In this document: piece after piece, positions 60 through 35,054 of the stretch
Layout of the letters: each line of letters starts with the position of its first letter
How positions within the stretch are numbered: the first letter of the stretch is position 1
NCBI GenBank assembly: GCA_018302165.1
Contig: JAGWAA010000003.1
Coordinates: 1 to 37,714, forward strand
Length of the DNA: 37,714 nucleotides
Reading direction: 5' to 3'
DNA from: Candidatus Woesearchaeota archaeon
GTDB taxonomy: Archaea > Nanobdellota > Nanobdellia > SCGC-AAA011-G17 > GW2011-AR17
The notes under the pieces: model-generated
Told to the model about the DNA's origin: nothing
Database searches by the model: none
Seen by the model: the letters and a program-made list of their open reading frames with translations, nothing else
Program-made: the position numbers and the translations under genes

Positions 60-743
60 CTAAATTTTTTGTAACCAACCTTTTTTAGGTTCAAAGAAAT
101 CTCCATTCTTTTTCAAAGCATCAACAACTTCCTCAAGTTTTCTTTCTGTAATACCTTTCTCAAAAACTTTTGGTTTCAAATCTTCTTCTATACTAATTGG
201 CCCACCCATTTTCTCTTCGGATAACTGATACAAAATATCTCTTACATCTAAAATCCTTCCTCTGGAAGAAGCACTAATTCCTGTTGTCATCCGATCAATA
301 TCAATTTTTCCAGTCTCAGGATCAATACCAATATCATTCATACATCCTCTTAATAACGCAATTGCACGTAAAGCATCATCTTGATCAACAGTCTGTTTCA
401 ATTTAATTTTAGCAGAAGCTTCAGCTAATCTAACTACTGCTTCTAACTGTCTCGCAGAAATAGGAATTGGTTTAATAGAAGAATCTCCTTCAGTACCAGT
501 TGCACGTAAACTAACATAAAAATTCTTAATTGTTTCAATAGCTTCCTCAGTTAATTTAGGAAAAATTTTCTGTCTAGTATATGCAATATATTTTCTTAAT
601 ATTTTCCCATCAATTTCTGGCGGCAAATCTTTGTAAGCATGCGATTCCAAAACTTTTGACGCAATGTTTGCATCCATTTCTCTATTTGGTAAATCTCTCA
701 TTACAAAAATTAAATCAAATCTATTAATCAACGCAGGAGGCAA
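60..743 (-). CDS. mcm: MCM replicative helicase, C-terminal fragment (arginine-finger region, sensor 2, winged-helix tail). The frame is open upstream to 785 but has no ATG.
   Basis: Translation (GYFDPFTPIPNQID)LPPALINRFDLIFVMRD... matches the MCM block that follows sensor 1 (canonical NLPPxxLSRFDLIF). It is on the same strand as, and contiguous with, the N-terminal MCM ORF, but in another frame. Confidence 0.85.
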   Translation of the reverse strand: MPPALINRFDLIFVMRDLPNREMDANIASKVLESHAYKDLPPEIDGKILRKYIAYTRQKIFPKLTEEAIETIKNFYVSLRATGTEGDSSIKPIPISARQLEAVVRLAEASAKIKLKQTVDQDDALRAIALLRGCMNDIGIDPETGKIDIDRMTTGISASSRGRILDVRDILYQLSEEKMGGPISIEEDLKPKVFEKGITERKLEEVVDALKKNGDFFEPKKGWLQKI

Positions 744-3700
744 ATCAATCTGATTCGGAATCGGTGTAAATGGATCAAAATAGCCTCATGCAGCGCTGAA
801 GTATCTTCTTTAGAAATTTTATCCATTTCATCAAGAACTAAAATTCCTTTGTCTGCTAAAACCATCGCACCTGCTTCTAATGCCCACCCTCTAAGAAATT
901 CATCTTTAACAACAGAACAAGTATTATGTACAAGAACTCCATCAACAACAAAATTATGTGAATCATCAATGGTTAAATCATAAACATAATCATAAGGTGT
1001 ATCAATCATTTCAATATTAACTATCTTCTCCCAAAAGATATCACTCTTAGCAAGAACTTTAATTTCTTTAAAATCAGAACCTTTAACTTTATCAAGAATT
1101 TTCAGTAAACCTTCTCTAGAAAAGTTTTTATGCCAACCAAACTTTCTTAATGAATAATTATTCTTTTGGAGCAAACTTTTTAATCGAACAGAAATTCCTG
1201 GAACAATATCAATATTTGTATCACTCTTTGTTTTAATTTTCAAAAGTTCTTCTAATTTTTTTTTCTTATTCTGATTCCTCAAAGGAATAAACTCATAAAA
1301 TTTTTTAAATTCATCTAAACTTCTTATTTCTAAAATATATTTTTTATGTTTTCCTATAATTTTAGAATTTACAGAAGGATTTCTAATCCTCAAAGAAACA
1401 TGAATATTATATCTCAACAAAACACTCTGAAGCTGTCTTGCAAGTTTTTCAGAACAAGTTGTCAAATCAATACAAGAAGAGCCTTCTCCTTTTTTTCTAA
1501 CATAAACTGAGCCATCTGTATCATATAATCCAGCAATATAATGAGCCAAAAGATTATTTTTCATATGCAACAAATCTTCAGATAAATAAATTTTATTAGA
1601 TTTCGGAGACAAAACTAACCCTAATCCAAAAAGAACTTCTCCAAGAATCTTTGAAGAACACCTTGTTTGTTTAGGTCTCATTTTATTTCCTTCAGTAGAA
1701 TAATAATGTAATCTAAATTGATTCGTTAAGATTTTTTGGAATTCAGAATGTAAATCCTCCAACGAATTTGAAAAACCAATTTCATAAGTAGAATTACTCT
1801 TTCTAATATGACCATCACCTGCAACTAACCCTGCAAGATACAAAACTTCATCATTCAAAACTAATGGAAGACTATGATTTTTTCCATTATATAAACTAAC
1901 CTTAACCACTTTATCATGATAATCTAATCCTACAACATTAGAAATTTTAATCAAATCCCTTAACTTTATATTTCCTCTTGCAAAATCATTAACCCAATGA
2001 TGATATAATTGATTTTCAGAAATTTTCAAATCTTTGCAAGCTTTTCGTAAAGAACCATATTTCTTAACTAACAAATTAGCAATTTCCTTAACAAAAGGTT
2101 TAACATTATGAACAACAGGATTAGAATTAACAAAATCAAGTATATATTTTTTATCTATAACACCACCAATTAAAGTTCTAGGAGTAGCAACATATTCTCC
2201 AACCTTTAACTCATTACTCTTCCTCCAATAAGTAAACCCCTCTTCAATAAAAAAAAGACTTGTATTCCCAGTTAATTCTATTTGCTTGCCACTTGAAAGA
2301 GTAATCTTAAACATTTTTCTTGGAGCCTCAAGTTTCCAAAGAGCATTAGGTTTTTTAGAATGAATTTTTAATTTATTAGACATACTTTGTATTTTCACAT
2401 CTGAAATATTTTCTTCTTTCCAAACTCCCGGTTTAAATTCAATATTATTCACTAATCTTTGTTCAACTAAATCTTGTATTTTAGGCATCCCACCAGGATT
2501 AGTTAATACAAAACTATTCGGACTCACACACAATCCAGCTCCTGACGCAGATCGTCCTGCAACATACCTCGCTTTCGGAGCAGTCTTTTCTACAAAGGTT
2601 AACATCTGACTTTTTCCACAATTATGTGAAACAATCCCATTTGCAATAAACATATGACTTTCAGGGACTTCAAAATCATAAACATCTTTTACTCCAGCAA
2701 AATCAATTGAAACAATTTTCTCCCATTCTTGATAACCTTTCCTTTTTCTTTCTCTTTGATTAATTACTTCTTTAACTTTCAATAAAGCATTATTCTTTTT
2801 TTCAGAAACAAATCCAATATTCTCGATAAATAAATTCATATCAAAAGCTCTGCGTATACATAAATTATCTTCAACTATTCTAGATTGTATCCCAAAATAT
2901 AAAAGCAATAATTGAACATCTCTAAGCAATTCACTATATCTTGATTTCAATTGAATAGAAGTTCTTCCTCTGCCATTACCAAATGCACAACCATCAGCTT
3001 CAAATAACCATTTCAAAAACGATGCAACAACAGATTTAGGACTTTGAAAAATACTTTGTGGTACTTTTTTTTCAGAAAGAAAACTTAAAGATTGAGCAAT
3101 ATGTTTACTATTAGCTTCAATTAAATGAACTTGTTGAGTAGAAATAATTTGCCTTGTACTTCCATCAACATTTTGAATCATACTAATCTTAGGATCTCTT
3201 GAAGAAAAATAAGGCTCTATTTCAAAACAAGTTTTCCATAGATTTGTAATTGGTATAATTAATTCTTTTTCTGCATCACTAACATAACAAGTAATCCTAT
3301 ATCCATTAGGATGCACATTACCATCACCAATAATATATCCATACAATCCTGCAAGTTCAGGAGTAACCTCTTTAGGTAATTTAACATCTTTCAAAAGCCC
3401 ACTACTTTTTTTTACAAAACTAAAATTAGTTTTCACATAATCCTTAACATTATTTTTAATTTCAGGCATAACACGCAATTCTTCTCTTAAAGTAAAACAA
3501 TCCGCTCTCTTCCACCCTTCCTTGCTCAACAATGGATGATCCAAAGTACATATCAATTGCTTTCCAGTTTCAGTAACAACTTTCAAAACCAATTTTTGCT
3601 CATATTTATGAAACTTTTTTGCATAATCAAATCCTTTCTCATTCACACAAGCCAATTTAACATTAATTTTTTCTAAATGCTTCTTCCCTAAATCTTCAAT

Positions 3701-4723
3701 CTTCTTCATTCCAAAATTAGAAGTTGCAACTTGCGAATCCCCAACAATACATCCTGGATCACCAACTAACAATACATGCAAATCTCCTCTAACAATAGTC
3801 TGATCTGCTTTAGTCTTTCTAATTCCACCAAATAACTGTAAAAGAATAGCTTCTTTAATTTTATCATGCCCATAAATCGACGGAGAAATACTTGCAACTA
3901 ATCTCTTATAAATATTTTTATCTTTAGCCAACTTTTTAATTTCAACTTCATCCTCAGGAGTAATATTAATTTCAGTATAATCTTCCTCAACAGGCTCAAC
4001 AAAATTCCCATTAACTCCTAAATCAAATCTTGTTGAAGTCCCACCAGTTTTAGTTGGCACAGGAATTTCAAACATCAATCCATTAACAATTATCCTAGTC
4101 CCTGGTGTCGTTCGCTTCTCCATTTTTGGTTCAACTAAATCTTCTCTTAAAAATATCTGCATTCTTTTAGGTTGTGCCCCACCCTCTAAATTTTCTGGAG
4201 ACTCTTCAATAACAATTCTTTGAACATCTACTAATTCTTTGGATAATAATCTAAACTTTCCTTTCCTTCCACAAGAACATCTTGAAGGTTCTCTAAAATT
4301 TGAATCAACCTGTGGCATTGTAATTGTATTCCCACATGATGGACACTCAAATTTCGCACTTACTGCTTGCGGTCGAACTTCAGAACTCTGCCTAATGATT
4401 CCTTCCATTGCAATAAACTTATTCAGATGCTTACTTCTCAAATTTTTAATATAAATTTCCTGAGACTTAGGCAACCCTTTAAACCTCACTCTAAACCCTT
4501 TCTTAACATCAAACTGCTCTAAAGCCATCTCAGCAGCCTTCAAAGTCTCTTCTGGCTCCTCTAACAACTGGTCAGCTAATTTAGGATCAAATTTCGTCAA
4601 CTCAAAAAAATCTAAAACCAAAAAATTAAGCCCTTTAGACAGATTTTCATGCAATTGCTTCTGATAACTCTGTTCGACAAATTCCTGAAATTTTTCTATT
4701 TGATCAGCTGCATCAATGGTCAT
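728..4723 (-). CDS. mcm: MCM replicative helicase, N-terminal domain plus AAA+ core up to Walker B, interrupted by two inteins. It ends in an out-of-frame tail after ...SALHEA.
   Basis: N-domain Zn ribbon CPSCG..CSCG. Walker A is split as LLVGDPG|intein|CGKSQML. GRSASGAGL|intein|TCSVVKDEF follows, then Walker B ILVLDEMDK. ATGA start/stop overlap with the upstream ORF. Confidence 0.9.
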   Translation of the reverse strand: MTIDAADQIEKFQEFVEQSYQKQLHENLSKGLNFLVLDFFELTKFDPKLADQLLEEPEETLKAAEMALEQFDVKKGFRVRFKGLPKSQEIYIKNLRSKHLNKFIAMEGIIRQSSEVRPQAVSAKFECPSCGNTITMPQVDSNFREPSRCSCGRKGKFRLLSKELVDVQRIVIEESPENLEGGAQPKRMQIFLREDLVEPKMEKRTTPGTRIIVNGLMFEIPVPTKTGGTSTRFDLGVNGNFVEPVEEDYTEINITPEDEVEIKKLAKDKNIYKRLVASISPSIYGHDKIKEAILLQLFGGIRKTKADQTIVRGDLHVLLVGDPGCIVGDSQVATSNFGMKKIEDLGKKHLEKINVKLACVNEKGFDYAKKFHKYEQKLVLKVVTETGKQLICTLDHPLLSKEGWKRADCFTLREELRVMPEIKNNVKDYVKTNFSFVKKSSGLLKDVKLPKEVTPELAGLYGYIIGDGNVHPNGYRITCYVSDAEKELIIPITNLWKTCFEIEPYFSSRDPKISMIQNVDGSTRQIISTQQVHLIEANSKHIAQSLSFLSEKKVPQSIFQSPKSVVASFLKWLFEADGCAFGNGRGRTSIQLKSRYSELLRDVQLLLLYFGIQSRIVEDNLCIRRAFDMNLFIENIGFVSEKKNNALLKVKEVINQRERKRKGYQEWEKIVSIDFAGVKDVYDFEVPESHMFIANGIVSHNCGKSQMLTFVEKTAPKARYVAGRSASGAGLCVSPNSFVLTNPGGMPKIQDLVEQRLVNNIEFKPGVWKEENISDVKIQSMSNKLKIHSKKPNALWKLEAPRKMFKITLSSGKQIELTGNTSLFFIEEGFTYWRKSNELKVGEYVATPRTLIGGVIDKKYILDFVNSNPVVHNVKPFVKEIANLLVKKYGSLRKACKDLKISENQLYHHWVNDFARGNIKLRDLIKISNVVGLDYHDKVVKVSLYNGKNHSLPLVLNDEVLYLAGLVAGDGHIRKSNSTYEIGFSNSLEDLHSEFQKILTNQFRLHYYSTEGNKMRPKQTRCSSKILGEVLFGLGLVLSPKSNKIYLSEDLLHMKNNLLAHYIAGLYDTDGSVYVRKKGEGSSCIDLTTCSEKLARQLQSVLLRYNIHVSLRIRNPSVNSKIIGKHKKYILEIRSLDEFKKFYEFIPLRNQNKKKKLEELLKIKTKSDTNIDIVPGISVRLKSLLQKNNYSLRKFGWHKNFSREGLLKILDKVKGSDFKEIKVLAKSDIFWEKIVNIEMIDTPYDYVYDLTIDDSHNFVVDGVLVHNTCSVVKDEFLRGWALEAGAMVLADKGILVLDEMDKISKEDTSALHEAILIHLHRFRIRLICLLR
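923..2530 (-). mobile_element. Intein 2 in MCM after ...SGAGL, 536 aa, with a LAGLIDADG homing endonuclease domain
   Basis: Starts CVSPNS, LAGLIDADG motifs LYLAGLVAGDGHI and HYIAGLYDTDGSV, ends GVLVHN followed by Thr+1 (TCSVVKDE). The block B position reads LTGNT, so it has no His. The end codon AAT was checked at 923-925. Confidence 0.8.
2621..3751 (-). mobile_element. Intein 1 in the MCM Walker A loop, 377 aa, with a LAGLIDADG homing endonuclease domain
   Basis: Starts CIVGDS (Cys1), block B TLDH, LAGLIDADG motifs LAGLYGYIIGDGNV and FLKWLFEADGCA, ends GIVSHN followed by Cys+1. Removing it restores GDPG-CGKSQ. Coordinates were counted from the ORF translation and checked against the codons at 3749-3751. 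Confidence 0.8.
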
Positions 4724-5151
4724 AAGCCCAGGAATAGAATTATTGAATATAAAGATTTGTGTTGTTTTTCCGAAATATTTTTAATCATCCTAACTTGATT
4801 TTCCTTTAGAAACCCTTTTTTTCTTAACAAATCCAATTTAGCTTTTGAAAGAACTTTAAACCCTGCCTTTTTACAAGCTTTCAAAGAAGCTATATTATCC
4901 TTATCAATAGTCGCACTCAAACAATTAAGATTCATTTTTTCCATAATCAAATTAACAATTATTTCAAATAGCCCTTTACTTCTAAACTCTTTTTTAATAA
5001 TAATTTGCAAAAAGTTTGGTTCAACTACACCTACAATACCAACTTTAGTTTTATTCTCAAATACAGTAAAAAAATTCTCACCTAACAAGATTTTTTCTTT
5101 ATCAATTAAAGAATTAAAAAAAACCTTATCAAATTTCTTTAAAGATATCAT
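4720..5151 (-). CDS. GNAT-family N-acetyltransferase (putative)
   Basis: IIIKKEFRSKGLFEIIVNLI resembles the acetyl-CoA pocket motif. NIASLKACKKAGFKV is the typical GNAT C-terminal N..A..L..K.GF. Stop overlaps the mcm ATG (ATGA). Confidence 0.5.
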   Translation of the reverse strand: MISLKKFDKVFFNSLIDKEKILLGENFFTVFENKTKVGIVGVVEPNFLQIIIKKEFRSKGLFEIIVNLIMEKMNLNCLSATIDKDNIASLKACKKAGFKVLSKAKLDLLRKKGFLKENQVRMIKNISEKQHKSLYSIILFLGL

Positions 5152-5186
5152 AATTAAACAAAGTTAAATCAAATTAAAAAAGGTTT

Positions 5187-6376: not shown

Positions 6377-7114
6377 ATGCTAGATTTAACTAAATTAGGC
6401 TTAACTAAATTAGAATACAAAACCTATCTCATTCTTAGACGTTTAGGTAAATCCACACCAGGAATAATAATCAAAGAACTCCAGCTGCATCGAGCTACAG
6501 CTTATGATGTTCTTAATCGTTTAATCAAAAAAGGCTTAGTCAGTTACATAACAATAAACAAAAAGCGTTATTTCATTGCAGAAGATCCTTCAAGACTTTT
6601 AGATATTCTTACAGAAAAAGAATCAGAATTAGAAACTGAAAAGAAAAAAATAATTAAAGCTATTGAAGAGATTCAAAACTCAGAAAAAATAAAACAACCA
6701 AAGGATATTGCAAAAATTTTAACCGGAAAAGAGGGTGTAAAAACATTAATGCAAGATATTCTCAATACTAATCAAAATTTTCTCTCAATGGGTGGAGAGC
6801 TTAAGTTCAGAGATATTCTTCCAATATATTCAAAACATTGGGCAAAAGAACGTGAACATAAAAAAATTTTTGGAAAATTAATTTCAAATTATAAAACAAA
6901 AGACCAATGGAAAATGAATCATATTCGTTATTTACCCAAAGAATACACACTCCCCACCCCGATTATAATCTATGGTAATAAAATTGCCCTTGTTACACCA
7001 GATGAGAACTTCACAACAATTTTAATAGAAAATGAAAAAATTGCACAAGCATATAGGAGTCATTTTAATATCCTCTGGAACATAACGAAAAATAAACGGA
7101 GATTACTAAAATGA
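6377..7114 (+). CDS. TrmB-family transcriptional regulator
   Basis: N-terminal wHTH LTKLEYKTYLILRRLGKSTPGIIIKELQLHRATAYDVLNRLIKKGLVSY, followed by a coiled coil and a C-terminal domain, as in TrmB-like proteins. Confidence 0.7.
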   Translation: MLDLTKLGLTKLEYKTYLILRRLGKSTPGIIIKELQLHRATAYDVLNRLIKKGLVSYITINKKRYFIAEDPSRLLDILTEKESELETEKKKIIKAIEEIQNSEKIKQPKDIAKILTGKEGVKTLMQDILNTNQNFLSMGGELKFRDILPIYSKHWAKEREHKKIFGKLISNYKTKDQWKMNHIRYLPKEYTLPTPIIIYGNKIALVTPDENFTTILIENEKIAQAYRSHFNILWNITKNKRRLLK

Positions 7115-8193
7115 AAAAAGAAATTGAAACTGCACAATTTTGGGCCAGAGAAACCCATACTCCTTTATTCACATTAACCGACCCAAATAAAATAGAAATA
7201 CAAAACACTTTAATTTTATACAACGCAGGAACTTCAAATTTTTATTATATAAATCAGAGTGAAAAAATAAGATCTAAAAAAGGATACGAATATTTTAGCA
7301 AAGAATCTAATTTCAATAAATATATTCAAGAGACAAAATTAATTATTACCAAAATACAGGCATTCATCAAACCCACACTTAAAAAGAATTACAAAATTTT
7401 GACTAATATAGAATTATTTAATGAATTCGAAATAACCGAGAACAAAATTCTTGAATTTTTTCAAATATATTCCCAAACTGAAGCTTACAATTTTAAAAAG
7501 TTCGAAAACAATTTCTCAAAATTCAATAAAGATTTTGAAGAAATTGGAAAAATACGCCTAGAAATGAGAAGATTAATTAAACCATTATTTACAATCCTTA
7601 TTGGGAAAATAATTAAAGAAACTGCCAAAAGAAATAATCTCAATATAGAAGATACATTTTTTTATACTTTAAATGAAATTAAAGATTTATTTTTAAACCA
7701 AAAACAAATTTCAAAAGAGATTTTAAATTCCAGAAAAAAAGGTTATTGTATTTTAGTCCAAGAAAATAGATATAAAATCTATACAAACAAAGATTATTCA
7801 GAAATTTCAAAAATTATTGAGAACAAATTCTCACCCAAAACTAAAACACTAACTGGTTCAGTAGCGTGCCAAGGCAAAGTCATCGGAATTGCAAGAGTAA
7901 TAATTCAAAATAAACAAAACCTCAAAAAAGAACTTTCAAAAATCAAGGACGGTAAAATCAAGGACGGTGAAATTCTAGTCACAGACATGACCAAGCCGGA
8001 AATGATAACCTATTGCAAAAAAACATCAGCAATCGTTACAGATGAAGGTGGAATTCTTTGTCATGCAGCAATAATTAGTAGAGAATTTAATATTCCCTGT
8101 ATTGTTGGCACCAAAATTGCAACCCAATTAATAAAAACAGGTGATAAAATAGAAGTTGATGCAATTAAAGGTGAAATAAAAAAAATTAATTAA
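7111..8193 (+). CDS. PEP-utilising enzyme mobile (swivel) domain protein; N-terminal ~240 aa unassigned
   Basis: C-terminus GSVACQGKVIGIARVI...GEILVTDMTKPEM...AIVTDEGGILCHAAIISREFNIPCIVG matches the phosphohistidine swivel domain (GGxxxHAAIxxRExxIP). ATGA overlap with the TrmB gene. Confidence 0.7.
   Translation: MKKEIETAQFWARETHTPLFTLTDPNKIEIQNTLILYNAGTSNFYYINQSEKIRSKKGYEYFSKESNFNKYIQETKLIITKIQAFIKPTLKKNYKILTNIELFNEFEITENKILEFFQIYSQTEAYNFKKFENNFSKFNKDFEEIGKIRLEMRRLIKPLFTILIGKIIKETAKRNNLNIEDTFFYTLNEIKDLFLNQKQISKEILNSRKKGYCILVQENRYKIYTNKDYSEISKIIENKFSPKTKTLTGSVACQGKVIGIARVIIQNKQNLKKELSKIKDGKIKDGEILVTDMTKPEMITYCKKTSAIVTDEGGILCHAAIISREFNIPCIVGTKIATQLIKTGDKIEVDAIKGEIKKIN
7939..7968 (+). repeat. 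Perfect 2 x 15-bp in-frame tandem duplication (aaaatcaaggacggt)
   Basis: Read directly: 7939-7953 equals 7954-7968. It encodes KIKDG-KIKDG. Confidence 0.9.
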
Positions 8194-8199
8194 AAAAAA

Positions 8200-8574
8200 T
8201 TAATCCAAAGGCTTCACTTCATAAACAAAACAACCAGAATTTGTATTCCAAGGTTGTAAAGGAAAAACACAATATTCTGAAACAGATACTACTTTTCTAT
8301 TTTCATAAGCATCTTTTAATCTATCATTAAGCTTCTCTAAATCTTCTCCACAATAAGAATCTGGATTTAATCTAAATATTCTAACATTTCCAGTTTCAGT
8401 TTGAAGAACTCCTTCTTTTCTTTGATTAAAAATACCTGCCTCACCAAATTCTAAAATATTAACTCTTTGATTTATTCTTTCTGAAGTATGCTTATTCCAA
8501 AAATAAATACCACCAGTAACAGTTGCTATAACAAAAAGAGCACATCCCATCTTAACATTATTTTCCAAATACAT
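8200..8574 (-). CDS. hypothetical membrane-anchored protein
   Basis: N-terminal hydrophobic helix GCALFVIATVTGGIYFW. No known motif. Confidence 0.45.
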   Translation of the reverse strand: MYLENNVKMGCALFVIATVTGGIYFWNKHTSERINQRVNILEFGEAGIFNQRKEGVLQTETGNVRIFRLNPDSYCGEDLEKLNDRLKDAYENRKVVSVSEYCVFPLQPWNTNSGCFVYEVKPLD

Positions 8575-8603
8575 TTTTTACTCCTATCACCAAATTTTTA
8601 AAT

Positions 8604-8804
8604 TTATTTTTCCAATAATTTTTCTTCTAAACCAGAATGTTCTGTAAAAGATTCCGGCTGGGATTTTTTATAATGATCATAACAACTTCCACCATAGACT
8701 GCTAAAAACAAACTTCCAAATCCAACAATAAATAAATAATCCATAAGTGTAGGCTTATGATCATAATCACTACCAAAAATCTTATCATCAATCTTTTGCA
8801 TCAT
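8604..8804 (-). CDS. small hypothetical membrane protein
   Basis: 66-aa ORF with one hydrophobic helix (LMDYLFIVGFGSLFLAVYGG), same strand as its neighbours. Confidence 0.35.
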   Translation of the reverse strand: MMQKIDDKIFGSDYDHKPTLMDYLFIVGFGSLFLAVYGGSCYDHYKKSQPESFTEHSGLEEKLLEK

Positions 8805-8820
8805 TCTTCAAATTTCTCCT

Positions 8821-9036
8821 TTAATTATTAAAAAACTGAGATTTATATTCGGAATCTCTAACTTTTCTAACAATATCATAAGTTCCAGCAACAAAACAAG
8901 CTATACCAACTATTCCAAAAAGAATATTCTCTAAATTTGGTTTAGAATATTCATTAATTACACCAGGAATAAAAAACAAAGACATACCAACAAAAGTACT
9001 AGGAGGTAAATATTTTTCAATCATTTTATCAATCAT
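8821..9036 (-). CDS. small hypothetical membrane protein
   Basis: 71-aa ORF with two hydrophobic helices, 2 nt downstream of the tbp stop. Confidence 0.4.
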   Translation of the reverse strand: MIDKMIEKYLPPSTFVGMSLFFIPGVINEYSKPNLENILFGIVGIACFVAGTYDIVRKVRDSEYKSQFFNN

Positions 9037-9038
9037 TT

Positions 9039-9629
9039 TTATTTATACCCAATCTTAGCAAGTTCTTTTATCAACAGGTCAACAGCTTCATGCAATTTAC
9101 TTTCAGATCGAGTTCCAGTACAAACAATTTTTCCGTTACTGAATAACAAGAATGTTGCACGAGTTCCAGGAAGTTTATACACAAGGCCAGGAAATTGCTC
9201 AGGTTCATATTCAGTGTTTGTTAATTGAACAGCTAAAGCGTTTAAATTCAAATCTAAACCAATAGACCCAGCAGCAACTAAATTTTGCACTGTAAATTTT
9301 GGTTGAACTGTAATTTTAACTTTAATCTTTTCAACATTTTTAATAATCATATCAATTGATTCTTTAACAATCTGCATGGACTTTGCTCCAGTACAAACTA
9401 TTTTTCCAGAACTAAATATCAACGCAGATGTTTTAGGTTCTTTAATTCTCATAACAAGCCCAGGAAACTGTTCTGGATTGTATTCAGTATTAGGTAATGC
9501 CTCTGCTAACTTCACTAAAGGAATAGGTCTTTCTAAACTAGAAGTTGCAACAATATTTACGATTTTGATTTCTTTCTTTGCTACCATATTATATCCTCCA
9601 AACTCTATTTTACATTTTTTAGTAATCAA
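9039..9629 (-). CDS. tbp: TATA-box binding protein (alternative start at 9587 preceded by GGAGG)
   Basis: Two TBP repeats: IVNIVATSSL...EYNPEQFPGLVMRIKEPKTSALIFSSGKIVCTGAKS and VQNLVAAGSI...EYEPEQFPGLVYKL...TFLLFSNGKIVCTGTRS. Confidence 0.9.
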   Translation of the reverse strand: MITKKCKIEFGGYNMVAKKEIKIVNIVATSSLERPIPLVKLAEALPNTEYNPEQFPGLVMRIKEPKTSALIFSSGKIVCTGAKSMQIVKESIDMIIKNVEKIKVKITVQPKFTVQNLVAAGSIGLDLNLNALAVQLTNTEYEPEQFPGLVYKLPGTRATFLLFSNGKIVCTGTRSESKLHEAVDLLIKELAKIGYK

Positions 9630-9676
9630 AATTCCTTTATAAACCTATTTATAAACAACTTGTCTCTAATTGGAGA

Positions 9677-10105
9677 CTAAACAGAAGAAACATTATTACC
9701 AACAACTTTTTCAAGGGAATTAAAAGAATCATAATTACACATACTTAAATCAACTAATCCTCTCTTAAATGCCTCTTCAAAAAGTTCTAAATTTGACTCA
9801 ACTTTAAGGCTAAGACTAGCAATTTGTCTTATTAATCTTAAATTCGTATTTCGTAATTCTACAGCTCTACTTCTTGCAGTTTCAATCAGACTATTTCTAT
9901 CTAATGAATCATATAAAGTACCACAACACTCACAAGAATAATGATTTCCACTAACAATATCACCAGATACAATCAAAACATGATCATCCAATGGACACAA
10001 AGCTTGAACACAATCAGGACCAAATTTAGAATTAAAAGTCTTTTTAGACATTTGGTAAAATTCATCTACTGTACCATCAAAAAAATATACTCCTAATTTT
10101 CTCAT
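9677..10105 (-). CDS. hypothetical Cys-rich protein
   Basis: 142-aa ORF with CVQALC...H...CECC, a possible Zn site, and a C-terminal helical region. Confidence 0.45.
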   Translation of the reverse strand: MRKLGVYFFDGTVDEFYQMSKKTFNSKFGPDCVQALCPLDDHVLIVSGDIVSGNHYSCECCGTLYDSLDRNSLIETARSRAVELRNTNLRLIRQIASLSLKVESNLELFEEAFKRGLVDLSMCNYDSFNSLEKVVGNNVSSV

Positions 10106-10124
10106 AACAAATAAAATTATTCAT

Positions 10125-12971
10125 TTATTTATTAATTTTCTCAATCCCCAAAATAAATTTCTTTCCTTTAATATCCCCAACAACTGAAGAACCTTTATCT
10201 AAAGTCTCAGCACCAAAATTAATTTCTACAGTTCCACATCTCTCAGCAATCATATTCTTCCAACGTTTTAAATCAACTTCAAATTTCAAATACAACCTAA
10301 TTCTATCATTCCTATTCAACCCAGCATCTTTTCTCATTGATTGCACTTTTCTCATAATCTCTCTAGCAAATCCTTCTTCTTCTAAATCTTTAGTCATCGT
10401 CAAATCCAATTTAACAGAAATTTCTTTACCTTGACTATAATCAATAGTTTTAACATTCAATTGTTTTGAAATCAATCCAACAATTTCTTCATCCAAATTA
10501 ACATCACAAATAACATCCGCTTTTCCTAAAGGCCATTTCAATCCAACTTGTGCTTTATCTCTTTGTCCTAAACCCAGTTCAATAATTTTCATAACTCCAA
10601 CAAATTCTTTTTCAATTTCTTCATTAATTAATTTTTCATCATACTTTGGCCAAGTAGTCAAATGTACAGATTCTTCAGAAACAATATCAACACTTCTCAA
10701 AGATTGCCAGATACTTTCACAAAACAAAGGACAAATTGTTGCAAACATTTGTATAGCTTTCACATACACATCTTTCAAAGTATTATATACAATTCCAGGA
10801 CTCTCTAAAGATTTATCACGAGTCATTTTTATATAAACTCTAGAAATATCCAACAACAATTTTTCTAATTCAGTAATAGTTTCATCAAACTTGTATGCTT
10901 CAAACAAAAATGTAACCTTCTTAACAGCAGAATTCAACCTAGAAAGAATATATTTTTCTTCTATTCCAAGTTCTCCACTTTCTAAACCTTCAGAATTTTT
11001 TAATTGCAATAAATAGTTAGCCATATTCTGAAAGACAATCAAGTTTCTTTGTTTTTGTTTAATAGTCTCCCAATTGAAATTAATATTCTCTCCAGCAGTA
11101 GTCTCACAAATATAATATCTCAAAATATCCGAGGAAAATTTATCCACAACTTCATATGGCGAGATAATATTCCCTAATGATTTAGACATTTTCGTGCCCT
11201 CAAAATCAAAAATCATCCCATGATTATAAGCTCCTACATAACAAGGCTTCTTGAACATGATTGCAGAACATATTTGCAACATACTAAACCATAATCTAGT
11301 TTGCTCAGTAGCTTCTAAGATCAAATCCGCAGGAAAATATTTTTCAAACAAATCCTTTTTGTCCGGATAATACAAACAATTCCATGAAACTGTCCCTGAA
11401 TCCAACCAAACATCTAATACATCTAGAATTCTTTCAATAATCTTACCACATTTTGAACATTTAATTTTAACTTCATCAATCCATGGCTTATGCAAATCAT
11501 CAGGCAAATCATCAATAGCTTTTTCTTTTAGTTCATCCTTACTACCAATCACTTCAACATACCCACATGAACATTCCCAAATTGGTGCTGGTGTTCCCCA
11601 AAACCTCTGCCTAGTAACTCCATTATCTCTCAAATTTGAAATCCAAGATTCATAACTATCTTTTGAACTCTTTGGTTCCCATTTTATTTTTTTATTATAC
11701 TCTAAAATTTCTGGGATTAAATCTTCAATCTTCAAAAACCATTGTTCAGTTGTTCTGAATACAATAGGATTATGACATCTCCAACAGTGTGCATATTCGT
11801 GCTCAACTTCAGTTTCAGTAATCAAACAACCATTATTTTTAAAATATTCAATAAACTTTTTATCATCCTTCTTTGCAACCCAGCCATTAAATTTTCCACT
11901 AGTCAAAACACCTTTTTCATCTAAAGAATTAAACGCTTCAATATTATATGCTCTTCCAACTTCATAATCTTCAGGCCCACAACCAGGAGCACAATGAACT
12001 AATCCACTTCCAGCAGAAGTATCAACATATTGTTTTGATAATAAAACTGTATGCACATTAGGACACCTTTTTTTCAAATCAGCATACTCTTTTTTCAATT
12101 CTTCATGCAATGGATGCTCATAACTTAACCCTTCTAACTTCTCTCCTAAAAAAGTTTCTAAGGTTTCAAATTTATAACCTAATAATCCTGTAATGAAAAC
12201 AAACGCCAAATCTTTTGCAACTATCCAAACTTCTTTTCCTTTTTCAGTTTCAACCTCAGCTTTAACATAATACAAATCTGGGTTTACCATAACAGCTAAA
12301 TTATATAAAATCGTCCACGGAGTCGTTGTCCAAATTACTAAATATTCATTTTGTTTCTTATTCACTTTAAATTTTAAAAAAATAGAATCTTCCTTCAGGG
12401 TTTCATACTCTAATTCATGCTTTGCTAACGAAGTCTCACAAGAACCACACCAAGACATAACTTTTTTTCCTTTGTATAATCTTTTTTGCTTCCAAGCTTC
12501 TTTGAATAACAACCATTCTCCACTAATGAAATCATTTGTGATTGGCATGTACGCATTTTCAAAATCCATCCAGATACCAAGCCTCAATAAATCTAGATTC
12601 ATTTGTTTTGCTCCATTAAAAGAAAACTCTTTACACCTTATAGCAAACTTATCTAATCCAAAATTAATGATAGCATCCTTATCTTTAAGATTCATATCTT
12701 TTTGAACTTTATTTTCTGTAGGCAAACCATGCATATCATACCCAGCTCTATCCCAAACATCATAACCTTTCAATCTAAAGTATCTCATAGCAATATCTTT
12801 CATGCTATTATTCCATGCATGCCCAATATGCAATTTACCAGAAGTATAAGGCGGCCCTTGCAAGAAATAAAATTTCTTTCCTTTAGCATTATTTTTCTTT
12901 GATTTCAGATAAATATCATTATCTTCCCAAAACTTCAACATATCTTCTTCAATTTTCTTAAAGTCCTGCAT
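10125..12971 (-). CDS. ileS: isoleucyl-tRNA synthetase
   Basis: GPPYTSGKLHIGHAWNNSMKDIAMRY (HIGH), WCGSCETSLAKHELEY, editing-domain TTTPWT, KMSKSLGN (KMSKS). The pattern is IleRS-type rather than ValRS or LeuRS. Confidence 0.85.
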   Translation of the reverse strand: MQDFKKIEEDMLKFWEDNDIYLKSKKNNAKGKKFYFLQGPPYTSGKLHIGHAWNNSMKDIAMRYFRLKGYDVWDRAGYDMHGLPTENKVQKDMNLKDKDAIINFGLDKFAIRCKEFSFNGAKQMNLDLLRLGIWMDFENAYMPITNDFISGEWLLFKEAWKQKRLYKGKKVMSWCGSCETSLAKHELEYETLKEDSIFLKFKVNKKQNEYLVIWTTTPWTILYNLAVMVNPDLYYVKAEVETEKGKEVWIVAKDLAFVFITGLLGYKFETLETFLGEKLEGLSYEHPLHEELKKEYADLKKRCPNVHTVLLSKQYVDTSAGSGLVHCAPGCGPEDYEVGRAYNIEAFNSLDEKGVLTSGKFNGWVAKKDDKKFIEYFKNNGCLITETEVEHEYAHCWRCHNPIVFRTTEQWFLKIEDLIPEILEYNKKIKWEPKSSKDSYESWISNLRDNGVTRQRFWGTPAPIWECSCGYVEVIGSKDELKEKAIDDLPDDLHKPWIDEVKIKCSKCGKIIERILDVLDVWLDSGTVSWNCLYYPDKKDLFEKYFPADLILEATEQTRLWFSMLQICSAIMFKKPCYVGAYNHGMIFDFEGTKMSKSLGNIISPYEVVDKFSSDILRYYICETTAGENINFNWETIKQKQRNLIVFQNMANYLLQLKNSEGLESGELGIEEKYILSRLNSAVKKVTFLFEAYKFDETITELEKLLLDISRVYIKMTRDKSLESPGIVYNTLKDVYVKAIQMFATICPLFCESIWQSLRSVDIVSEESVHLTTWPKYDEKLINEEIEKEFVGVMKIIELGLGQRDKAQVGLKWPLGKADVICDVNLDEEIVGLISKQLNVKTIDYSQGKEISVKLDLTMTKDLEEEGFAREIMRKVQSMRKDAGLNRNDRIRLYLKFEVDLKRWKNMIAERCGTVEINFGAETLDKGSSVVGDIKGKKFILGIEKINK

Positions 12972-13095
12972 ATCAACAAAAAACTTCCCAGTTGTTTAAA
13001 TAATTTGCCCAAAATAGCAACTCTAAAATATATACCAAAAGGTTTATAAAGAATCTTCTTACCTAATTTATATTAGAGGTGATAGGAATTGATAA

Positions 13096-13395
13096 ATGGA
13101 AGATATTATAGACAAACCGATGCTGGTTATGCAAATACGACCAGAGTTTTCTGTAGTTTACAAAGCAAATCCTAAACTTAAATTAAAAAAAGAATTTATA
13201 AAATCAAAAAAAGAATTCACTGATTATCTTACTAAAACCGCTAAAAACTGGAAAGAAGGAGATTATTTCTTAAGATCTGGTCTTGGTCCATTTGCAGCAT
13301 TCAACGTTAAAAAAGGCGGAAAAATAACTTTATACAAAGAAAACAAAAATAAAATCCCCTACTTATGTAACTTTATACAAAGAAAACAAAAATAA
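13096..13395 (+). CDS. hypothetical protein; C-terminus altered by the 43-bp tandem duplication
   Basis: 99-aa ORF with GAGGTG upstream. Its stop lies inside the second repeat copy. Confidence 0.45.
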   Translation: MEDIIDKPMLVMQIRPEFSVVYKANPKLKLKKEFIKSKKEFTDYLTKTAKNWKEGDYFLRSGLGPFAAFNVKKGGKITLYKENKNKIPYLCNFIQRKQK

Positions 13396-13410
13396 AATCC
13401 CCTACTTATG
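13325..13410 (+). repeat. Perfect 2 x 43-bp tandem duplication
   Basis: taactttatacaaagaaaacaaaaataaaatcccctacttatg at 13325-13367 is identical to 13368-13410. Confidence 0.9.
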
Positions 13411-13428
13411 TTGGGGCGTTTTTAAAAA

Positions 13429-13803
13429 ATGAAATTATTAAATTTTAATTTTGAAAATATGAAATTGTACCATGTAGTTTTTGCAGGCTTAGGTACTTTA
13501 GGTGACATATTAAGCAGAGAAGAATATAATAATCCCAAATTAGAACACTATCTCCATTCATATGGTTCAGATGTAACAGTCCCATTTGGATTATATTTTG
13601 TAACAAGAGCATATGGAGCTTCAAAAAAAGCTACACTATTAACTTGGGGAACATTAGCAACTTTATCAGAGTTAGCAGAAATAGGTTCAGAAACAGGAGT
13701 ATTCGATCCAAAAGACTTTCTAGCATTTGCCACAGGTTTTAGCCTAGCCTTAGGAATAGAAAAAATTTTCGAACCTAAAAAAGAGTCACCAAAACCCTTA
13801 TAA
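13429..13803 (+). CDS. hypothetical membrane protein
   Basis: 124-aa ORF with several hydrophobic segments. Confidence 0.45.
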   Translation: MKLLNFNFENMKLYHVVFAGLGTLGDILSREEYNNPKLEHYLHSYGSDVTVPFGLYFVTRAYGASKKATLLTWGTLATLSELAEIGSETGVFDPKDFLAFATGFSLALGIEKIFEPKKESPKPL

Positions 13804-13853
13804 ACATAATAAAACCTATTTTTAGCAATTAAATTAAGGAGTTAAATGAAAAA

Positions 13854-14165
13854 ATGATGAATGACAGATTTAGAAAACCCGTAGAACAGGGAGACGAAAT
13901 AGAAGTTACTATTGAGAGTACTGGAGCAAAAGGCGATGGTATCGCTAAAGTAAATAACTTTGTAGTTATTGTTCCAGGTGTTAAACAAGGAGATGTAGTT
14001 AAAGTCAAGATTACAAGAGTCCTAAAGAAAATGGCTTTCGCAGAAGTTGTTGGCGAAGGTTCAGGCAAATCAGAAGAATCATATTCTGAATCCGAAGAAG
14101 AAGCAGAATCAAACGAAGAAAGTTCAGATGAAGAAGCTTTAGAAGAAGACGAAGAAGAACAATAG
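13854..14165 (+). CDS. TRAM-domain protein with an acidic Ser/Glu-rich tail
   Basis: PVEQGDEIEVTIESTGAKGDGIAKVNNFVVIVPGVKQGDVVKVKITRV is the TRAM beta-barrel pattern. AGGAG lies upstream. Confidence 0.7.
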   Translation: MMNDRFRKPVEQGDEIEVTIESTGAKGDGIAKVNNFVVIVPGVKQGDVVKVKITRVLKKMAFAEVVGEGSGKSEESYSESEEEAESNEESSDEEALEEDEEEQ

Positions 14166-14207
14166 ATTATCTAAAAACTTATAAATAATTTTCTTTTTTA
14201 TTAATTT

Positions 14208-14780
14208 ATGACAGATTCTACAATTTGGACAGAAAAATATCGACCCCAAACTTTTGAGGACATTAAAGGCCAAAAAAAAATAGTTGAAAGAATAAAAGCA
14301 TTTGTAGATCAACGAAATATGCCCCATATTCTTCTTGCTGGACCCGCAGGGGTTGGTAAATCAACAATTGCATTAGTTATAGCAAAAGAACTTTTTAAAG
14401 AAACTTGGAAAAATAATTTTTTAGAATTAAACGCATCTGATGACAGAGGGATTGATGTTGTTAGAAACACAATTAAAGAATTTGCAAAAACAAGAGCTTT
14501 AGGAAATGTTCCATTCAAAATTATTTTCTTAGATGAATGTGACTCTTTAACCAAAGAAGCCCAACAAGCACTTCGTAGGACTATGGAAAACTTTGTTACT
14601 TCTACTAGATTTGTTTTATCCTGTAACTATAGCAGTAAAATAATAGATCCAATTCAAAGTAGATGCACAGTTTTTAGATTCAAACCATTAACAAAAGAAG
14701 ATATTGAAGATTATGTAATGAAAATTGCAACCACAGAAAATCTTAATGTAATATTAGCCATGGTGATGTTAGAAAAATAA
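14208..14780 (+). CDS. rfcS: replication factor C small subunit, N-terminal fragment (frame broken after ...TTENLNV)
   Basis: WTEKYRPQTFEDIKGQ, Walker A LAGPAGVGKS, LELNASDDRGID, Walker B IIFLDECDSL, SRC motif IQSRC. Confidence 0.85.
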   Translation: MTDSTIWTEKYRPQTFEDIKGQKKIVERIKAFVDQRNMPHILLAGPAGVGKSTIALVIAKELFKETWKNNFLELNASDDRGIDVVRNTIKEFAKTRALGNVPFKIIFLDECDSLTKEAQQALRRTMENFVTSTRFVLSCNYSSKIIDPIQSRCTVFRFKPLTKEDIEDYVMKIATTENLNVILAMVMLEK

Positions 14781-15130
14781 CAAACGTCTTACAAAGTTGT
14801 TCTTCAATTGATCACAACATCACTGAAAATTTGGTTTATTCATTAGTTTCCGCGGCAGAACCAAAAGAAATTCAAGATATTTTATTATTAGCAATTAACA
14901 AAAGATTCATCCAATCAAGAGGTTTATTACTAGACACAATGCTTAAACATGGTTTATCAGGTTTAGATATCCTAAAACAAATTCAAAAAGAAACTATGGA
15001 AATAGATTCCATCTCTGATGAAAAAAGAATCGAATTATTAGATAAATGTGGAGAGATAGAATTTAGAATGGTTGAAGGCGCAGATGAATTCATACAACTA
15101 GAAGCATTATTAGCTTACTTTGCAAAATGA
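14762..15130 (+). CDS. rfcS: replication factor C small subunit, C-terminal fragment. It has no start codon of its own. The frame is open from 14747; the ORF track starts at TTG 14831.
   Basis: GDVRKITNVLQS (the GDxRxxxNxLQ sensor-2 motif) ... FRMVEGADEFIQLEALLAYFAK matches the canonical RFC-S C-terminus. Confidence 0.8.
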   Translation, partial: GDVRKITNVLQSCSSIDHNITENLVYSLVSAAEPKEIQDILLLAINKRFIQSRGLLLDTMLKHGLSGLDILKQIQKETMEIDSISDEKRIELLDKCGEIEFRMVEGADEFIQLEALLAYFAK

Positions 15131-15351
15131 CATACACAATAGAAGTTCATCGTGAAGAAAAAGGATATTATTTAGAAATTAATAGAAATCCTAAATCAAA
15201 TGGAACAAAAAATAGAATCATTAAAGCTAATAGTTTAGATGACCTTGCAACAATATTATCAACAGAAACTATCAAAGCCCCAACGATATTTCAAATTAAA
15301 TACTTTGATGGTATATCCAAACGTGACCTGCGAAGCAGAATATATAAATAA
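15127..15351 (+). CDS. hypothetical protein between rfcS and rfcL
   Basis: 74-aa ORF; ATGA overlap with the rfcS stop. Confidence 0.4.
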   Translation: MTYTIEVHREEKGYYLEINRNPKSNGTKNRIIKANSLDDLATILSTETIKAPTIFQIKYFDGISKRDLRSRIYK

Positions 15352-15353
15352 TC

Positions 15354-15467
15354 ATGAATCCTTGGACCAAAAAATATATCCCAAAATTTACCAGAGAAAT
15401 TATTGGACAAGAAGCATCAATAATTAAAATAAAACAATCTCTGAATTTAAAAAAACCTTTCTTTTGA
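15354..15467 (+). CDS. rfcL: replication factor C large subunit, N-terminal 37-codon fragment
   Basis: Hand translation gives MNPWTKKYIPKFTREIIGQEASIIKIKQSLNLKKPFF, stop TGA at 15465-15467. It matches RFC box II (PWxEKYRPxxxxEIxGQ). Confidence 0.65.
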   Translation: MNPWTKKYIPKFTREIIGQEASIIKIKQSLNLKKPFF

Positions 15468-16443
15468 AGTTAATGCTTCTGATACAAGAAACAAAGAAGG
15501 TATTCAAAACCTCCTAGGCAGTTCAATGCAACAACAAAGCCTTTTTTCAAAAGGAAAATTAATATTAGTTGATGATATCGACGCCCTTTCAGGGACCAAA
15601 GATCGTGGAGGTCTAGGTGCAATTGAAGAATTAATCACAAAACCAAAACATCTAACCTTTTTAACTTGCATAGATCCTTGGGAGGATAAATTTTCAAAAC
15701 TCAGAAAAAAATGTATTTTGATAGAATTCCAATCATTAAAAAGAGATTCAATAATTAATCATTTAAAAAAAATATGTGAAGAAGAAAAAGTAAATTATAC
15801 TGAAAAAGACTTACAAGAAATAGCAAAATTAAGCAAAGGCGATTTAAGAGCCGCAATTAATGATCTCCAAGCATTCAGTATCACAAAAACTATTTCAACA
15901 GAGGATAAATCAGAAAGAGATAAAGAAGAAGATTTAATTTTTTGTTTAAGAAAAATTTTAAAAAGTAAAAAATGGAATGAAACCATAAATATTTTTGATA
16001 AAACAAATGAAGATCTAAATGAATGCATGCTATGGTTGGATGAGAATCTCCCAAAAGAATATTCTTCTGAAGATTTAAAAAAAGCTTATGAAAAACTTTC
16101 AAGAGCAGATGTATTTCAAGGTAGAATAAGAAGATGGCAATATTGGAGATATTTAGTTTACATAAATATTCTAATTACCTCAGGCATTGCAATTTCAAAA
16201 AAAGAAACAAATCCTGAAACTCCAGAATATACTAGAACTTCAAGGATATTAAAACTCTGGATGGCAAAAGTTAGAAATGCAAAGAAGAAATCCATTTCAG
16301 AAAAAATTGCAACAGTAACACACACCTCAAAACATCGCGCATTAAAAGATACTTACCCATACTTACGTAAGATTTTACAAAATCCTGAGGTTATAAAAGA
16401 ATTAGAACTAGACGAAGAAGAAATTGAATGGCTTAGGAAGTAA
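15466..16443 (+). CDS. rfcL: replication factor C large subunit, remainder. The frame is open from 15451; the ORF track starts at ATG 15526. Walker A is absent.
   Basis: EVNASDTRNKEGI, Walker B LILVDDIDAL, KGDLRAAINDLQ, LSRADVFQGRIRRWQYW. Confidence 0.8.
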   Translation, partial: EVNASDTRNKEGIQNLLGSSMQQQSLFSKGKLILVDDIDALSGTKDRGGLGAIEELITKPKHLTFLTCIDPWEDKFSKLRKKCILIEFQSLKRDSIINHLKKICEEEKVNYTEKDLQEIAKLSKGDLRAAINDLQAFSITKTISTEDKSERDKEEDLIFCLRKILKSKKWNETINIFDKTNEDLNECMLWLDENLPKEYSSEDLKKAYEKLSRADVFQGRIRRWQYWRYLVYINILITSGIAISKKETNPETPEYTRTSRILKLWMAKVRNAKKKSISEKIATVTHTSKHRALKDTYPYLRKILQNPEVIKELELDEEEIEWLRK

Positions 16444-35024: not shown

Positions 35025-35054
35025 TCCTAAAACATAAGATTTAAATACCAAAAA

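What the first reader, a model, noticed from the sequence alone, without database searches (positions are those of the whole stretch)
728..15470. Pattern: three separate motif-scale lesions, all in AAA+ replication genes
mcm (~31 codons), rfcS (~10 codons) and rfcL (~25 codons) each lose a short, highly conserved internal block and change frame at the junction. The neighbouring long genes read by eye are uninterrupted: ileS 948 aa, polB 749 aa, cdc48 830 aa, fen, and the HerA-like gene. Three independent inactivations of essential, normally single-copy replication genes within 16 kb are hard to explain as ordinary decay. Possible explanations follow. (a) Assembly or polishing artefacts at sites polymorphic for inteins; P-loops and other conserved AAA+ blocks are classic intein homing sites, and mcm here already carries two inteins. 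(b) Imprecise loss of inteins. (c) This is a degenerate extra copy of a replication module. (d) An unrecognised process is at work. The required frame shifts are not uniform (-1, -1, +1) and catalytic residues are missing, so simple recoding does not rescue the genes.
Basis: inference. Interest (0 to 1): 0.65.

Follow-up and report, generated by a model that had tools for sequence, protein, structure and literature searches.

The report
Assembly errors breaking three replication genes
The three "broken" replication genes (mcm, rfcS, rfcL) are errors of this one deposited metagenome contig: in every other assembly of the same groundwater archaeon examined the genes are whole, so there is no biological lesion to explain.

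Summary
The three lesions are in the window exactly as described. It lacks 97 nt in mcm (779|780), 28 nt in rfcS (14748|14749) and 74 nt in rfcL (about 15462), and each loss shifts the frame. They are not in the organism. The window is a whole 37,714-nt NCBI contig of a groundwater Woesearchaeota-like archaeon. Logan contigs of 8 public runs and 27 loci from other assemblies (JGI, ENA, Logan) never show any of these junctions. Wherever they span a site, they carry the missing block. With the blocks put back, MCM is 1586 aa, RfcS 316 aa and RfcL 387 aa. Words spanning the mcm and rfcS junctions occur in no indexed run.

The "AAA+ only" pattern comes from what a reader can see by eye. The contig has four more deposit-only defects: a 55-nt and an 18-nt deletion in or next to intergenic DNA, and perfect 15-nt and 43-nt tandem duplications. 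This mix is the known signature of local mis-joins in metagenome scaffolds.

There the missing block straddles a site where some strains carry a third, 341-aa insertion that looks like an intein.

Verdict: an artefact, not a real feature, and of low interest.

The parts
780..4723 (-). mcm, 5' part up to the false junction. It includes intein 1 (2621-3751, 377 aa) and intein 2 (923-2530, 536 aa). NCBI annotates it as a 1331-aa protein that runs to a frameshifted stop at 728.
   Evidence: ORF list. Pfam finds MCM_N, MCM_OB, MCM, two Intein_splicing stretches and LAGLIDADG_3. Intein coordinates. The exact 1331-aa protein is in NCBI nr on a 37,714-nt contig.
779..780 (-). False junction in mcm. 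97 nt are missing between these two bases. They encode MEQQHISVAKANIQATLRTQTSILAAANPKMGR (sensor 1).
   Evidence: An X10 Logan contig carries 97 letters between 779 and 780. Contigs of X1, X3 and X8 break there, with loose ends that encode LAAANPKMGR. L012 carries the 97 nt, and L011 carries 97 + 1023 nt. Restoring the block gives 1586 aa, 2 residues different from P0002. Junction words occur in 0 runs.
60..779 (-). mcm, 3' part (arginine finger NRFD, AAA lid, winged helix). NCBI annotates it as a separate 227-aa protein.
   Evidence: Pfam finds the MCM C-terminal end, MCM_lid and MCM_WH_arc. P0004 (227 aa) is in NCBI nr.
4775..4776 (-). False junction. 55 nt are missing: the 3' end of the GNAT acetyltransferase gene and part of the spacer upstream of mcm. 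The loss turns a 127-aa protein into a 143-aa one that overlaps the mcm start.
   Evidence: Joint in X1, X3 and X7. L012 carries the 55 nt. The 143-aa form is unique to the NCBI contig; the full-length gene calls in its cluster are 127 aa.
7939..7968 (+). Perfect 15-nt tandem duplication (AAAATCAAGGACGGT twice), in frame, in a gene for a protein with a PEP-utilising mobile domain. It is a single copy everywhere else.
   Evidence: All 4 runs leave out 15 nt, at full depth. 4 of 4 independent loci have one copy. Coordinates. Pfam.
13325..13410 (+). Perfect 43-nt tandem duplication at the 3' end of a small ORF (99 aa here, 97 aa elsewhere).
   Evidence: 12 of 12 independent loci have one copy. 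Joint in X1, X3 and X5. About 30 nt downstream, some strains (L013, L016, run X13) carry an extra 429-nt gene.
14208..15130 (+). rfcS (RFC small subunit), with a false junction at 14748|14749. 28 nt are missing: TAGATAAAAA(T/C)ACCATTGCCTCATTGGT.
   Evidence: The 28 nt are put in behind 14748 in X1, X3, X8 and X10 at full depth and in X5 and X7. 16 of 16 independent loci carry the block. The restored gene gives 316 aa, identical to the independent calls. Junction words occur in 0 runs.
15127..15351 (+). Conserved 74-aa ORF between rfcS and rfcL. It is intact and has no family match.
   Evidence: It is called in the independent assemblies that reach it. Pfam finds nothing.
15354..16443 (+). rfcL (RFC large subunit), with a false junction at 15461-15463. 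The position is ambiguous by the shared letters TT. 74 nt encoding the Walker A loop (LIHGPTGTGKT...) are missing.
   Evidence: Logan contigs of X1, X8, X10 and X2, X13 span the site with the extra letters, and loose ends encode IHGPTGTGKT. 8 of 8 spanning loci carry the block, and 4 more contigs end at or inside it. The restored gene gives 387 aa with 0 differences. The junction is in 0 JGI contigs and the intact form in 3.
35051..35052 (+). False junction. 18 nt (AGTAGACACGTATAAACT) are missing from the spacer just upstream of the ORF that starts at 35055.
   Evidence: Put in behind 35051 in all 4 runs at full depth. 8 of 8 independent loci carry the 18 nt.
9682..10130 (-). A true strain polymorphism, not an error. 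This 449-nt block holds a Cys-rich 142-aa ORF and is present in some strains and absent in others.
   Evidence: X1, X3, X5 and X7 skip it, with a G in its place. The same 142-aa protein occurs on other JGI and ENA contigs. The block is present in L013 and L016 and absent in L014.

Best explanation
The lesions are local assembly errors in one deposited metagenome contig. They are not mutations of the organism. In the natural population, a DPANN (Woesearchaeota-like) archaeon from aquifer groundwater, mcm, rfcS and rfcL are intact single-copy genes at this locus.

Inferred, not shown: the deposited contig was stitched together from shorter pieces that ended where the assembly graph branches. Such branch points arise from strain variants, presence/absence insertions, and motif-coding DNA shared with other community members. 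The pieces were joined end to end without reconciling the ends. Where a short stretch lay between two pieces it was lost, giving deletions of 18-97 nt. Where two pieces overlapped, the overlap was written twice, giving perfect tandem duplications of 15 and 43 nt.

Three of the seven bad joins fell in long, recognisable genes and shifted the frame, so only those were visible to a reader working by eye.
For: Shown:
1. The window is the whole NCBI contig. The truncated products are in NCBI nr: MCM 1331 aa and 227 aa, the RfcL piece of 305 aa, the 99-aa ORF and the 143-aa GNAT. Each is seen only on the 37,714-nt contig.
2. At least 20 public runs hold the flanking DNA, the best of them at about 0.95 of sampled words. 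Words spanning the mcm and rfcS junctions are in none.
3. No Logan contig of the 8 runs examined supports any junction, and those that span a site carry the missing or un-duplicated sequence.
4. 27 loci from other assemblies (JGI, ENA, Logan) have the intact form at every site they span: 16/16, 8/8, 12/12, 4/4, 8/8 and 1/1, plus L011 and L012 for mcm.
5. Putting the blocks back gives RfcS and RfcL identical to the independent calls, and an MCM of 1586 aa that differs by 2 residues from P0002.
6. The rfcL junction string is in 0 JGI contigs, and the intact string is in 3.
7. Depth is even across the locus, so there is no sign of a second copy.

Support for the mis-join mechanism:
- Four independent assemblies end at or inside the rfcL P-loop block.
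- Logan contigs of 3 of 4 runs break at 779|780. Two variant contigs leave 779, and contigs of other organisms share the flanks.
- The mcm block holds an insertion polymorphism and several synonymous SNPs.
- The rfcS block holds a T/C SNP.
- The 43-nt duplication lies next to a gene that is present in some strains and absent in others.
- Chen et al. 2020 (PMC7111523) describe this class of error. It includes consensus without read support, and duplicated sequence where flanking pieces overlap at a scaffold join.
Against: I saw assembled contigs of the runs, not raw reads, and contigs drop rare variants. I could not identify the source sample or the assembler of the deposit. The window holds no N, so the join step is inferred. 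The rfcS deletion is not at a contig break in any assembly I saw, so graph branching there rests on a single SNP. The junction-word test used only 2 and 3 sampled words, and many runs are not indexed.
Confidence: 0.93

Rival explanations
1. Real mutations in a minority strain. The source sample held a sub-population with decaying replication genes, and the assembler happened to follow it.
For: Small deletions and perfect tandem duplications are also what replication slippage or end joining produce. Contigs cannot prove that a rare variant is absent (tool caveat).
Against: This would need seven structural changes in 37.7 kb, in a contig that otherwise differs from other assemblies by only about 0.1-0.6%, with three of them knocking out essential single-copy genes. 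None of the changes appears in 8 runs, 27 loci or the word index. An assembly consensus follows the majority.
Confidence: 0.04
2. Imprecise excision of inteins left scars in the three genes.
For: The mcm block straddles the insertion point of a third, intein-like insertion found in some strains. P-loops are classic intein sites (own knowledge).
Against: Alleles without that insertion, with the block intact, are the common form (six distinct 1586-aa MCM sequences). No intein allele of rfcS or rfcL was found. Four lesions lie outside any extein.
Confidence: 0.01
3. The window is a degenerate second copy of a replication module, and intact paralogues lie elsewhere.
For: None beyond the lesions themselves.
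Against: The intact genes lie in the same gene order, flanked by DNA 99-100% identical to the window. Depth is flat, at single-copy level.
Confidence: 0.01
4. Recoding, or an unknown process at RNA or protein level, restores the genes.
For: None.
Against: The catalytic residues are absent from the window DNA but present in the DNA of every other assembly. No restoring process is needed.
Confidence: 0.005

Closest known systems
Local assembly errors and scaffold mis-joins in metagenome-assembled genomes (Chen et al. 2020, Genome Res 30:315, PMC7111523)
   Same: The consensus is not supported by the read-derived contigs. The defects are short, below read or k-mer length. Sequence is duplicated where flanking pieces overlap. 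Truncated proteins have been passed on into public databases. The errors sit at sites of strain variation.
   Different: That paper describes the overlap type with Ns left in the scaffold. Here the joins carry no N. Neither the assembler nor the step that removed or never wrote the gap is known.
Intein presence/absence polymorphism in archaeal MCM (own knowledge: MCM is a frequent intein host, with several insertion sites in the ATPase core)
   Same: This mcm has two LAGLIDADG inteins: one in the P-loop (GDPG|C...N|CGKSQ) and one after GAGL (C...HN|T). Some strains carry a third in-frame 341-aa insertion before the sensor-1 strand (ANIQA|C...GN|TLRTQ).
   Different: The polymorphism is real, but it is not the lesion. 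It marks only the place where the deposited assembly failed. The third insertion matches no Pfam intein model and no PDB sequence. It shows only intein hallmarks and a weak collinear match to intein 1 (E = 0.023).
Pseudogenes or split genes of reduced DPANN genomes (for example the split genes of Nanoarchaeum; own knowledge)
   Same: In the annotation, each gene appears as two ORFs.
   Different: Split genes keep all their residues and are conserved among relatives. Here residues are missing, and all relatives have a single whole gene.

Membership tests
Local assembly error in a metagenome contig | The consensus at the site has no support in the sequencing data | tested here: met
   No contig of the 8 runs crosses any of the 7 junctions in the window's form. 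Junction words are in 0 indexed runs. The rfcL junction is in 0 JGI contigs. Raw reads of the source sample were not available.
Local assembly error in a metagenome contig | Independent assemblies of the same population agree with each other and disagree with the contig | tested here: met
   27 loci from JGI, ENA and Logan assemblies all carry the intact form wherever they span a site (with for mcm).
Local assembly error in a metagenome contig | Errors are not tied to gene function and occur in any kind of sequence | tested here: met
   4 of the 7 lie outside the AAA+ genes: two in or next to intergenic DNA, one in frame in an unrelated gene, and one at the end of a small ORF.
Local assembly error in a metagenome contig | Sites coincide with contig ends or graph branch points of the original assembly | not testable with these tools
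   The original graph is not available. Indirect evidence: other assemblies break at the rfcL and mcm blocks, and polymorphisms lie in or next to the mcm, rfcS, 43-nt and 55-nt sites.
Pseudogene (real inactivation) | The lesion is present in the organism's DNA | tested here: not met
   It is absent from all run-derived contigs and independent assemblies.
Intein (third mcm insertion in allele P0005) | In-frame insertion in a conserved host motif. It has an N-terminal Cys/Ser, a C-terminal Asn followed by Cys/Ser/Thr, and splicing blocks with or without a homing endonuclease. | tested here: inconclusive
   It is 341 aa and in frame, and starts CYSEDTEIL. It has a TPNH block, LAGLIDADG-like motifs (LGYFVSEGG and AMMLGDGQ), and ends GN|T. 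In P0005 the MCM Pfam domain matches in 4 stretches. No Pfam intein model and no PDB sequence matches. There is a weak collinear match to intein 1, E = 0.023.
Programmed frameshift or recoding site | All residues are encoded, with a slippery or stimulatory signal conserved among relatives | tested here: not met
   Catalytic blocks are missing from the DNA. Relatives have uninterrupted frames.

The most novel reading that the evidence does not exclude
The junctions could be real in a rare sub-population of the source sample. These would be defective genomes of an episymbiotic archaeon that lack working MCM and RFC and persist beside intact genomes, and the assembler happened to capture them. 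Contig-level evidence cannot formally exclude variants at low frequency.
Probability: 0.03. Interest if true: 0.55.

Novelty: not a real feature. Interest (0 to 1): 0.08.

Why it matters
There is no new biology here. The practical value is a warning. A public contig carries seven local mis-joins in 37.7 kb, and at least five wrong protein records have reached NCBI nr: MCM as 1331-aa and 227-aa pieces, a 305-aa RfcL piece, a 143-aa GNAT and a 99-aa ORF. The split rfcS is not there in the forms I looked up. Anyone inferring gene loss, split genes or 'missing P-loops' in DPANN replication machinery from this record would be misled. It also shows that lesions seen only in long conserved genes can simply reflect where an error is visible. 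The one real feature found on the way is a presence/absence polymorphism of a third, intein-like insertion in mcm within the aquifer population, which is an ordinary kind of finding.

Tried and rejected
- Two scans of the species-representative genome collection, one for the mcm junction and one for an rfcS flank, found nothing. The deposit could therefore not be read from there.
- Pfam and PDB sequence searches of the third mcm insertion gave no significant match.
- Rfam and tRNA scans of the window found nothing. The GC rise at 31-33 kb is the cdc48 gene, not rRNA.
- I checked whether the two 142-aa ORFs (window 9677-10105, and the extra gene of L013 and L016) are the same mobile element. 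They are unrelated.
- I considered that Ns had been stripped when the window was prepared. This is rejected: the NCBI contig has the same length as the window, and its annotated 1331-aa MCM reads through the mcm junction.
- A 'goes back' joint (8162 to 6676) rests on matches of only about 20 nt. I took it to be a contig of another organism.
Full report
**What the window is.** The window has about 30% G+C, no tRNA or rRNA genes and no N. An exact protein look-up shows that it is an entire NCBI contig of 37,714 nt. The odd products it encodes are in NCBI nr and are seen only on that contig: MCM 1331 aa, an MCM tail of 227 aa, an RfcL piece of 305 aa, a 99-aa ORF and a 143-aa GNAT. Close relatives are labelled Candidatus Woesearchaeota archaeon. 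At least 20 public groundwater and soil metagenome runs hold the DNA, the best of them at about 0.95 of sampled words.

**The observation.** Three-frame translation confirms all three lesions.
- mcm, on the - strand, changes frame at 779|780 between '...SALHEA' and 'FDPFTPIPNQIDLPPALINRFDLIF'.
- rfcS changes frame at 14748|14749 between '...TENLNV' and 'ISHGDVRKITNVLQS'.
- rfcL starts at 15354 and changes frame near 15462 between '...LNLKKPF' and 'FEVNASDTRNKEG'.

Pfam confirms the gene names and the two LAGLIDADG inteins in mcm. Intein 1 is at 2621-3751 and intein 2 at 923-2530.

**The lesions are not in the sequencing data.** I laid Logan contigs of X1, X3, X8 and X10 on the window.
- All four runs put 28 nt (TAGATAAAAATACCATTGCCTCATTGGT) in behind 14748, at full depth.
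- Contigs of X1, X8 and X10 cross the rfcL site with about 74 extra letters. Loose ends there read AATCCATGGTCCAACAGGAACTGGAAAAAC, which encodes IHGPTGTGKT.
- An X10 contig carries 97 letters between 779 and 780. The other runs break there, with loose ends that encode LAAANPKMGR.

Runs X5, X7, X2, X4, X12 and X13 agree, and none supports a junction. Queries of 60 nt in which every 31-mer crosses the mcm or rfcS junction found no run. The rfcL junction string is in 0 JGI metagenome contigs, while the intact string is in 3.

**Independent assemblies are intact.** Contigs carrying neighbouring or allelic genes were fetched from JGI, ENA and Logan assemblies, 27 loci in all. They call RfcS at 316 aa, RfcL at 387 aa and MCM at 1586 aa, in the same gene order as the window. 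Flank-to-flank distances show the intact form at every site a locus spans:
- rfcS: 16 of 16
- rfcL: 8 of 8
- 43-nt site: 12 of 12
- 15-nt site: 4 of 4
- 18-nt site: 8 of 8
- 55-nt site: 1 of 1
- mcm: L012 carries the 97 nt and L011 carries 97 + 1023 nt

Writing the blocks back into the window gives RfcS and RfcL identical to the independent calls. It gives an MCM of 1586 aa that differs from P0002 at two residues inside intein 1. The deleted lengths are 97 = 3n+1, 28 = 3n+1 and 74 = 3n+2.

**The pattern is not specific to AAA+ genes.** Laying four runs over the whole window and aligning the loci revealed four more defects found only in the deposit.
- A 55-nt deletion at 4775|4776. It removes the end of a GNAT gene, turning 127 aa into 143 aa, and part of the spacer upstream of mcm.
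- A perfect 15-nt tandem duplication at 7939-7968, in frame.
- A perfect 43-nt tandem duplication at 13325-13410.
- An 18-nt deletion at 35051|35052, in a spacer.

A reader working by eye could see only the frame-breaking hits in long, familiar genes. With 7 lesions, three or more in these genes has a chance of about 0.11, or 0.03 if only extein DNA is counted.

The 449-nt block at 9682-10130 also differs from four runs, but it is a true strain polymorphism. Its 142-aa ORF occurs in other assemblies.

**Why these sites (inferred).** Short deletions below about 100 nt, together with perfect duplications, are what results when contig ends are abutted instead of being gap-filled or overlap-merged. 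Chen et al. 2020 (PMC7111523) describe local assembly errors as consensus that lacks support by even one read. They also describe duplicated sequence where flanking pieces overlap at a scaffold join, and they suspect such errors are frequent in IDBA-UD assemblies.

The sites look like branch points of an assembly graph.
- The mcm block holds an insertion polymorphism, described below. It also holds several synonymous SNPs, one of them at its last base. Two variant contigs leave 779, and contigs of other organisms share the flanks.
- Four independent assemblies end at or inside the rfcL P-loop block. Depth there is raised by contigs of other community members.
- The rfcS block holds a T/C SNP.
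- The 43-nt duplication lies about 30 nt from a gene that is present in some strains and absent in others.
- A divergent strain, L011, loses similarity to the window a few bases from the 55-nt site.

I could not see the original graph, and I do not know which assembler was used. This step is therefore inference, at roughly 0.6 confidence. The conclusion that the lesions are artefacts stands at about 0.93.

**The intein idea.** The cluster that holds the window's MCM also holds two 1927-aa alleles. P0005 carries a 341-aa in-frame insertion...VAKANIQA|CYSEDTEIL...ITIQGN|TLRTQTSILAAANP. The insertion point is 43 nt from the left edge and 54 nt from the right edge of the missing 97-nt block. The extein DNA just 3' of that point differs at many synonymous positions between the alleles with and without the insertion.

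The insertion has intein hallmarks: Cys1, a TPNH block, two LAGLIDADG-like motifs and a terminal Asn followed by Thr. It also has a weak collinear match to intein 1 (E = 0.023). It matches no Pfam intein model and no PDB sequence.

No intein allele was seen for rfcS or rfcL.

**Rivals.** A decaying minority strain, scars left by intein loss, a degenerate second copy, and recoding are all contradicted. The intact genes lie at the same locus, depth is flat, and no junction appears in any data set. What remains is that contigs cannot exclude rare variants.

**Verdict.** The lesions are real in the record and false in the organism. This is not a real feature, and interest is low. The useful outcomes are a list of seven bad joins and of at least five wrong nr protein records, plus a note on a polymorphic third, intein-like insertion in mcm.

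Noticed in passing
window 779|780; locus L011 9945-11064: Some strains of the same population carry a third in-frame 341-aa insertion in mcm, giving a 1927-aa allele. It looks like an intein, sits just before the sensor-1 strand, and matches no Pfam intein model. The extein DNA 3' of the site is recoded at synonymous positions between the alleles with and without it.
   Followed up: partly
window 9682-10130: A 449-nt block holding a Cys-rich 142-aa ORF lies between the TBP and ileS genes. It is present in the window, L013 and L016, but absent from L014 and from the dominant contigs of X1, X3, X5 and X7, where a single G takes its place. It is a true presence/absence polymorphism of unknown nature.
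   Followed up: partly
L013 6492-6920 (equivalent to window about 13439): Strains L013 and L016 and run X13 carry an extra 429-nt gene (142 aa, Cys-rich, unrelated to the ORF at 9682-10130). It sits between the 97-aa and 124-aa ORFs and is flanked by an 11-nt direct repeat, AAAATGAAATT.
   Followed up: partly
window 15127-15351: A 74-aa ORF is wedged between rfcS, whose stop its start overlaps, and rfcL. It is called in the independent assemblies that reach it and has no Pfam match. It may be a small partner of the clamp loader, or simply a conserved hypothetical gene.
   Followed up: no
L013 16820-18588 (equivalent to window about 23165-23590): One strain has a 487-aa ORF, plus a 38-aa Trm5_N fragment, inserted next to the Trm5/TYW2 methyltransferase gene. 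This looks like a strain-specific insertion with a short duplication of the target gene.
   Followed up: no
window 29322-29753: This spacer and small-ORF region varies among runs: 12-13-nt insertions, a 6-nt deletion, and 71 nt replaced by 111 nt. The runs differ from one another here, so these are strain variants rather than errors of the deposit.
   Followed up: no
window 6377-9681 versus L011 and L014: The region between the HAD hydrolase gene and TBP, which includes the gene with the PEP-utilising mobile domain, is only about 90% identical in L014. In L011 it has different gene content. It is a hypervariable island within otherwise 99% identical strains.
   Followed up: no
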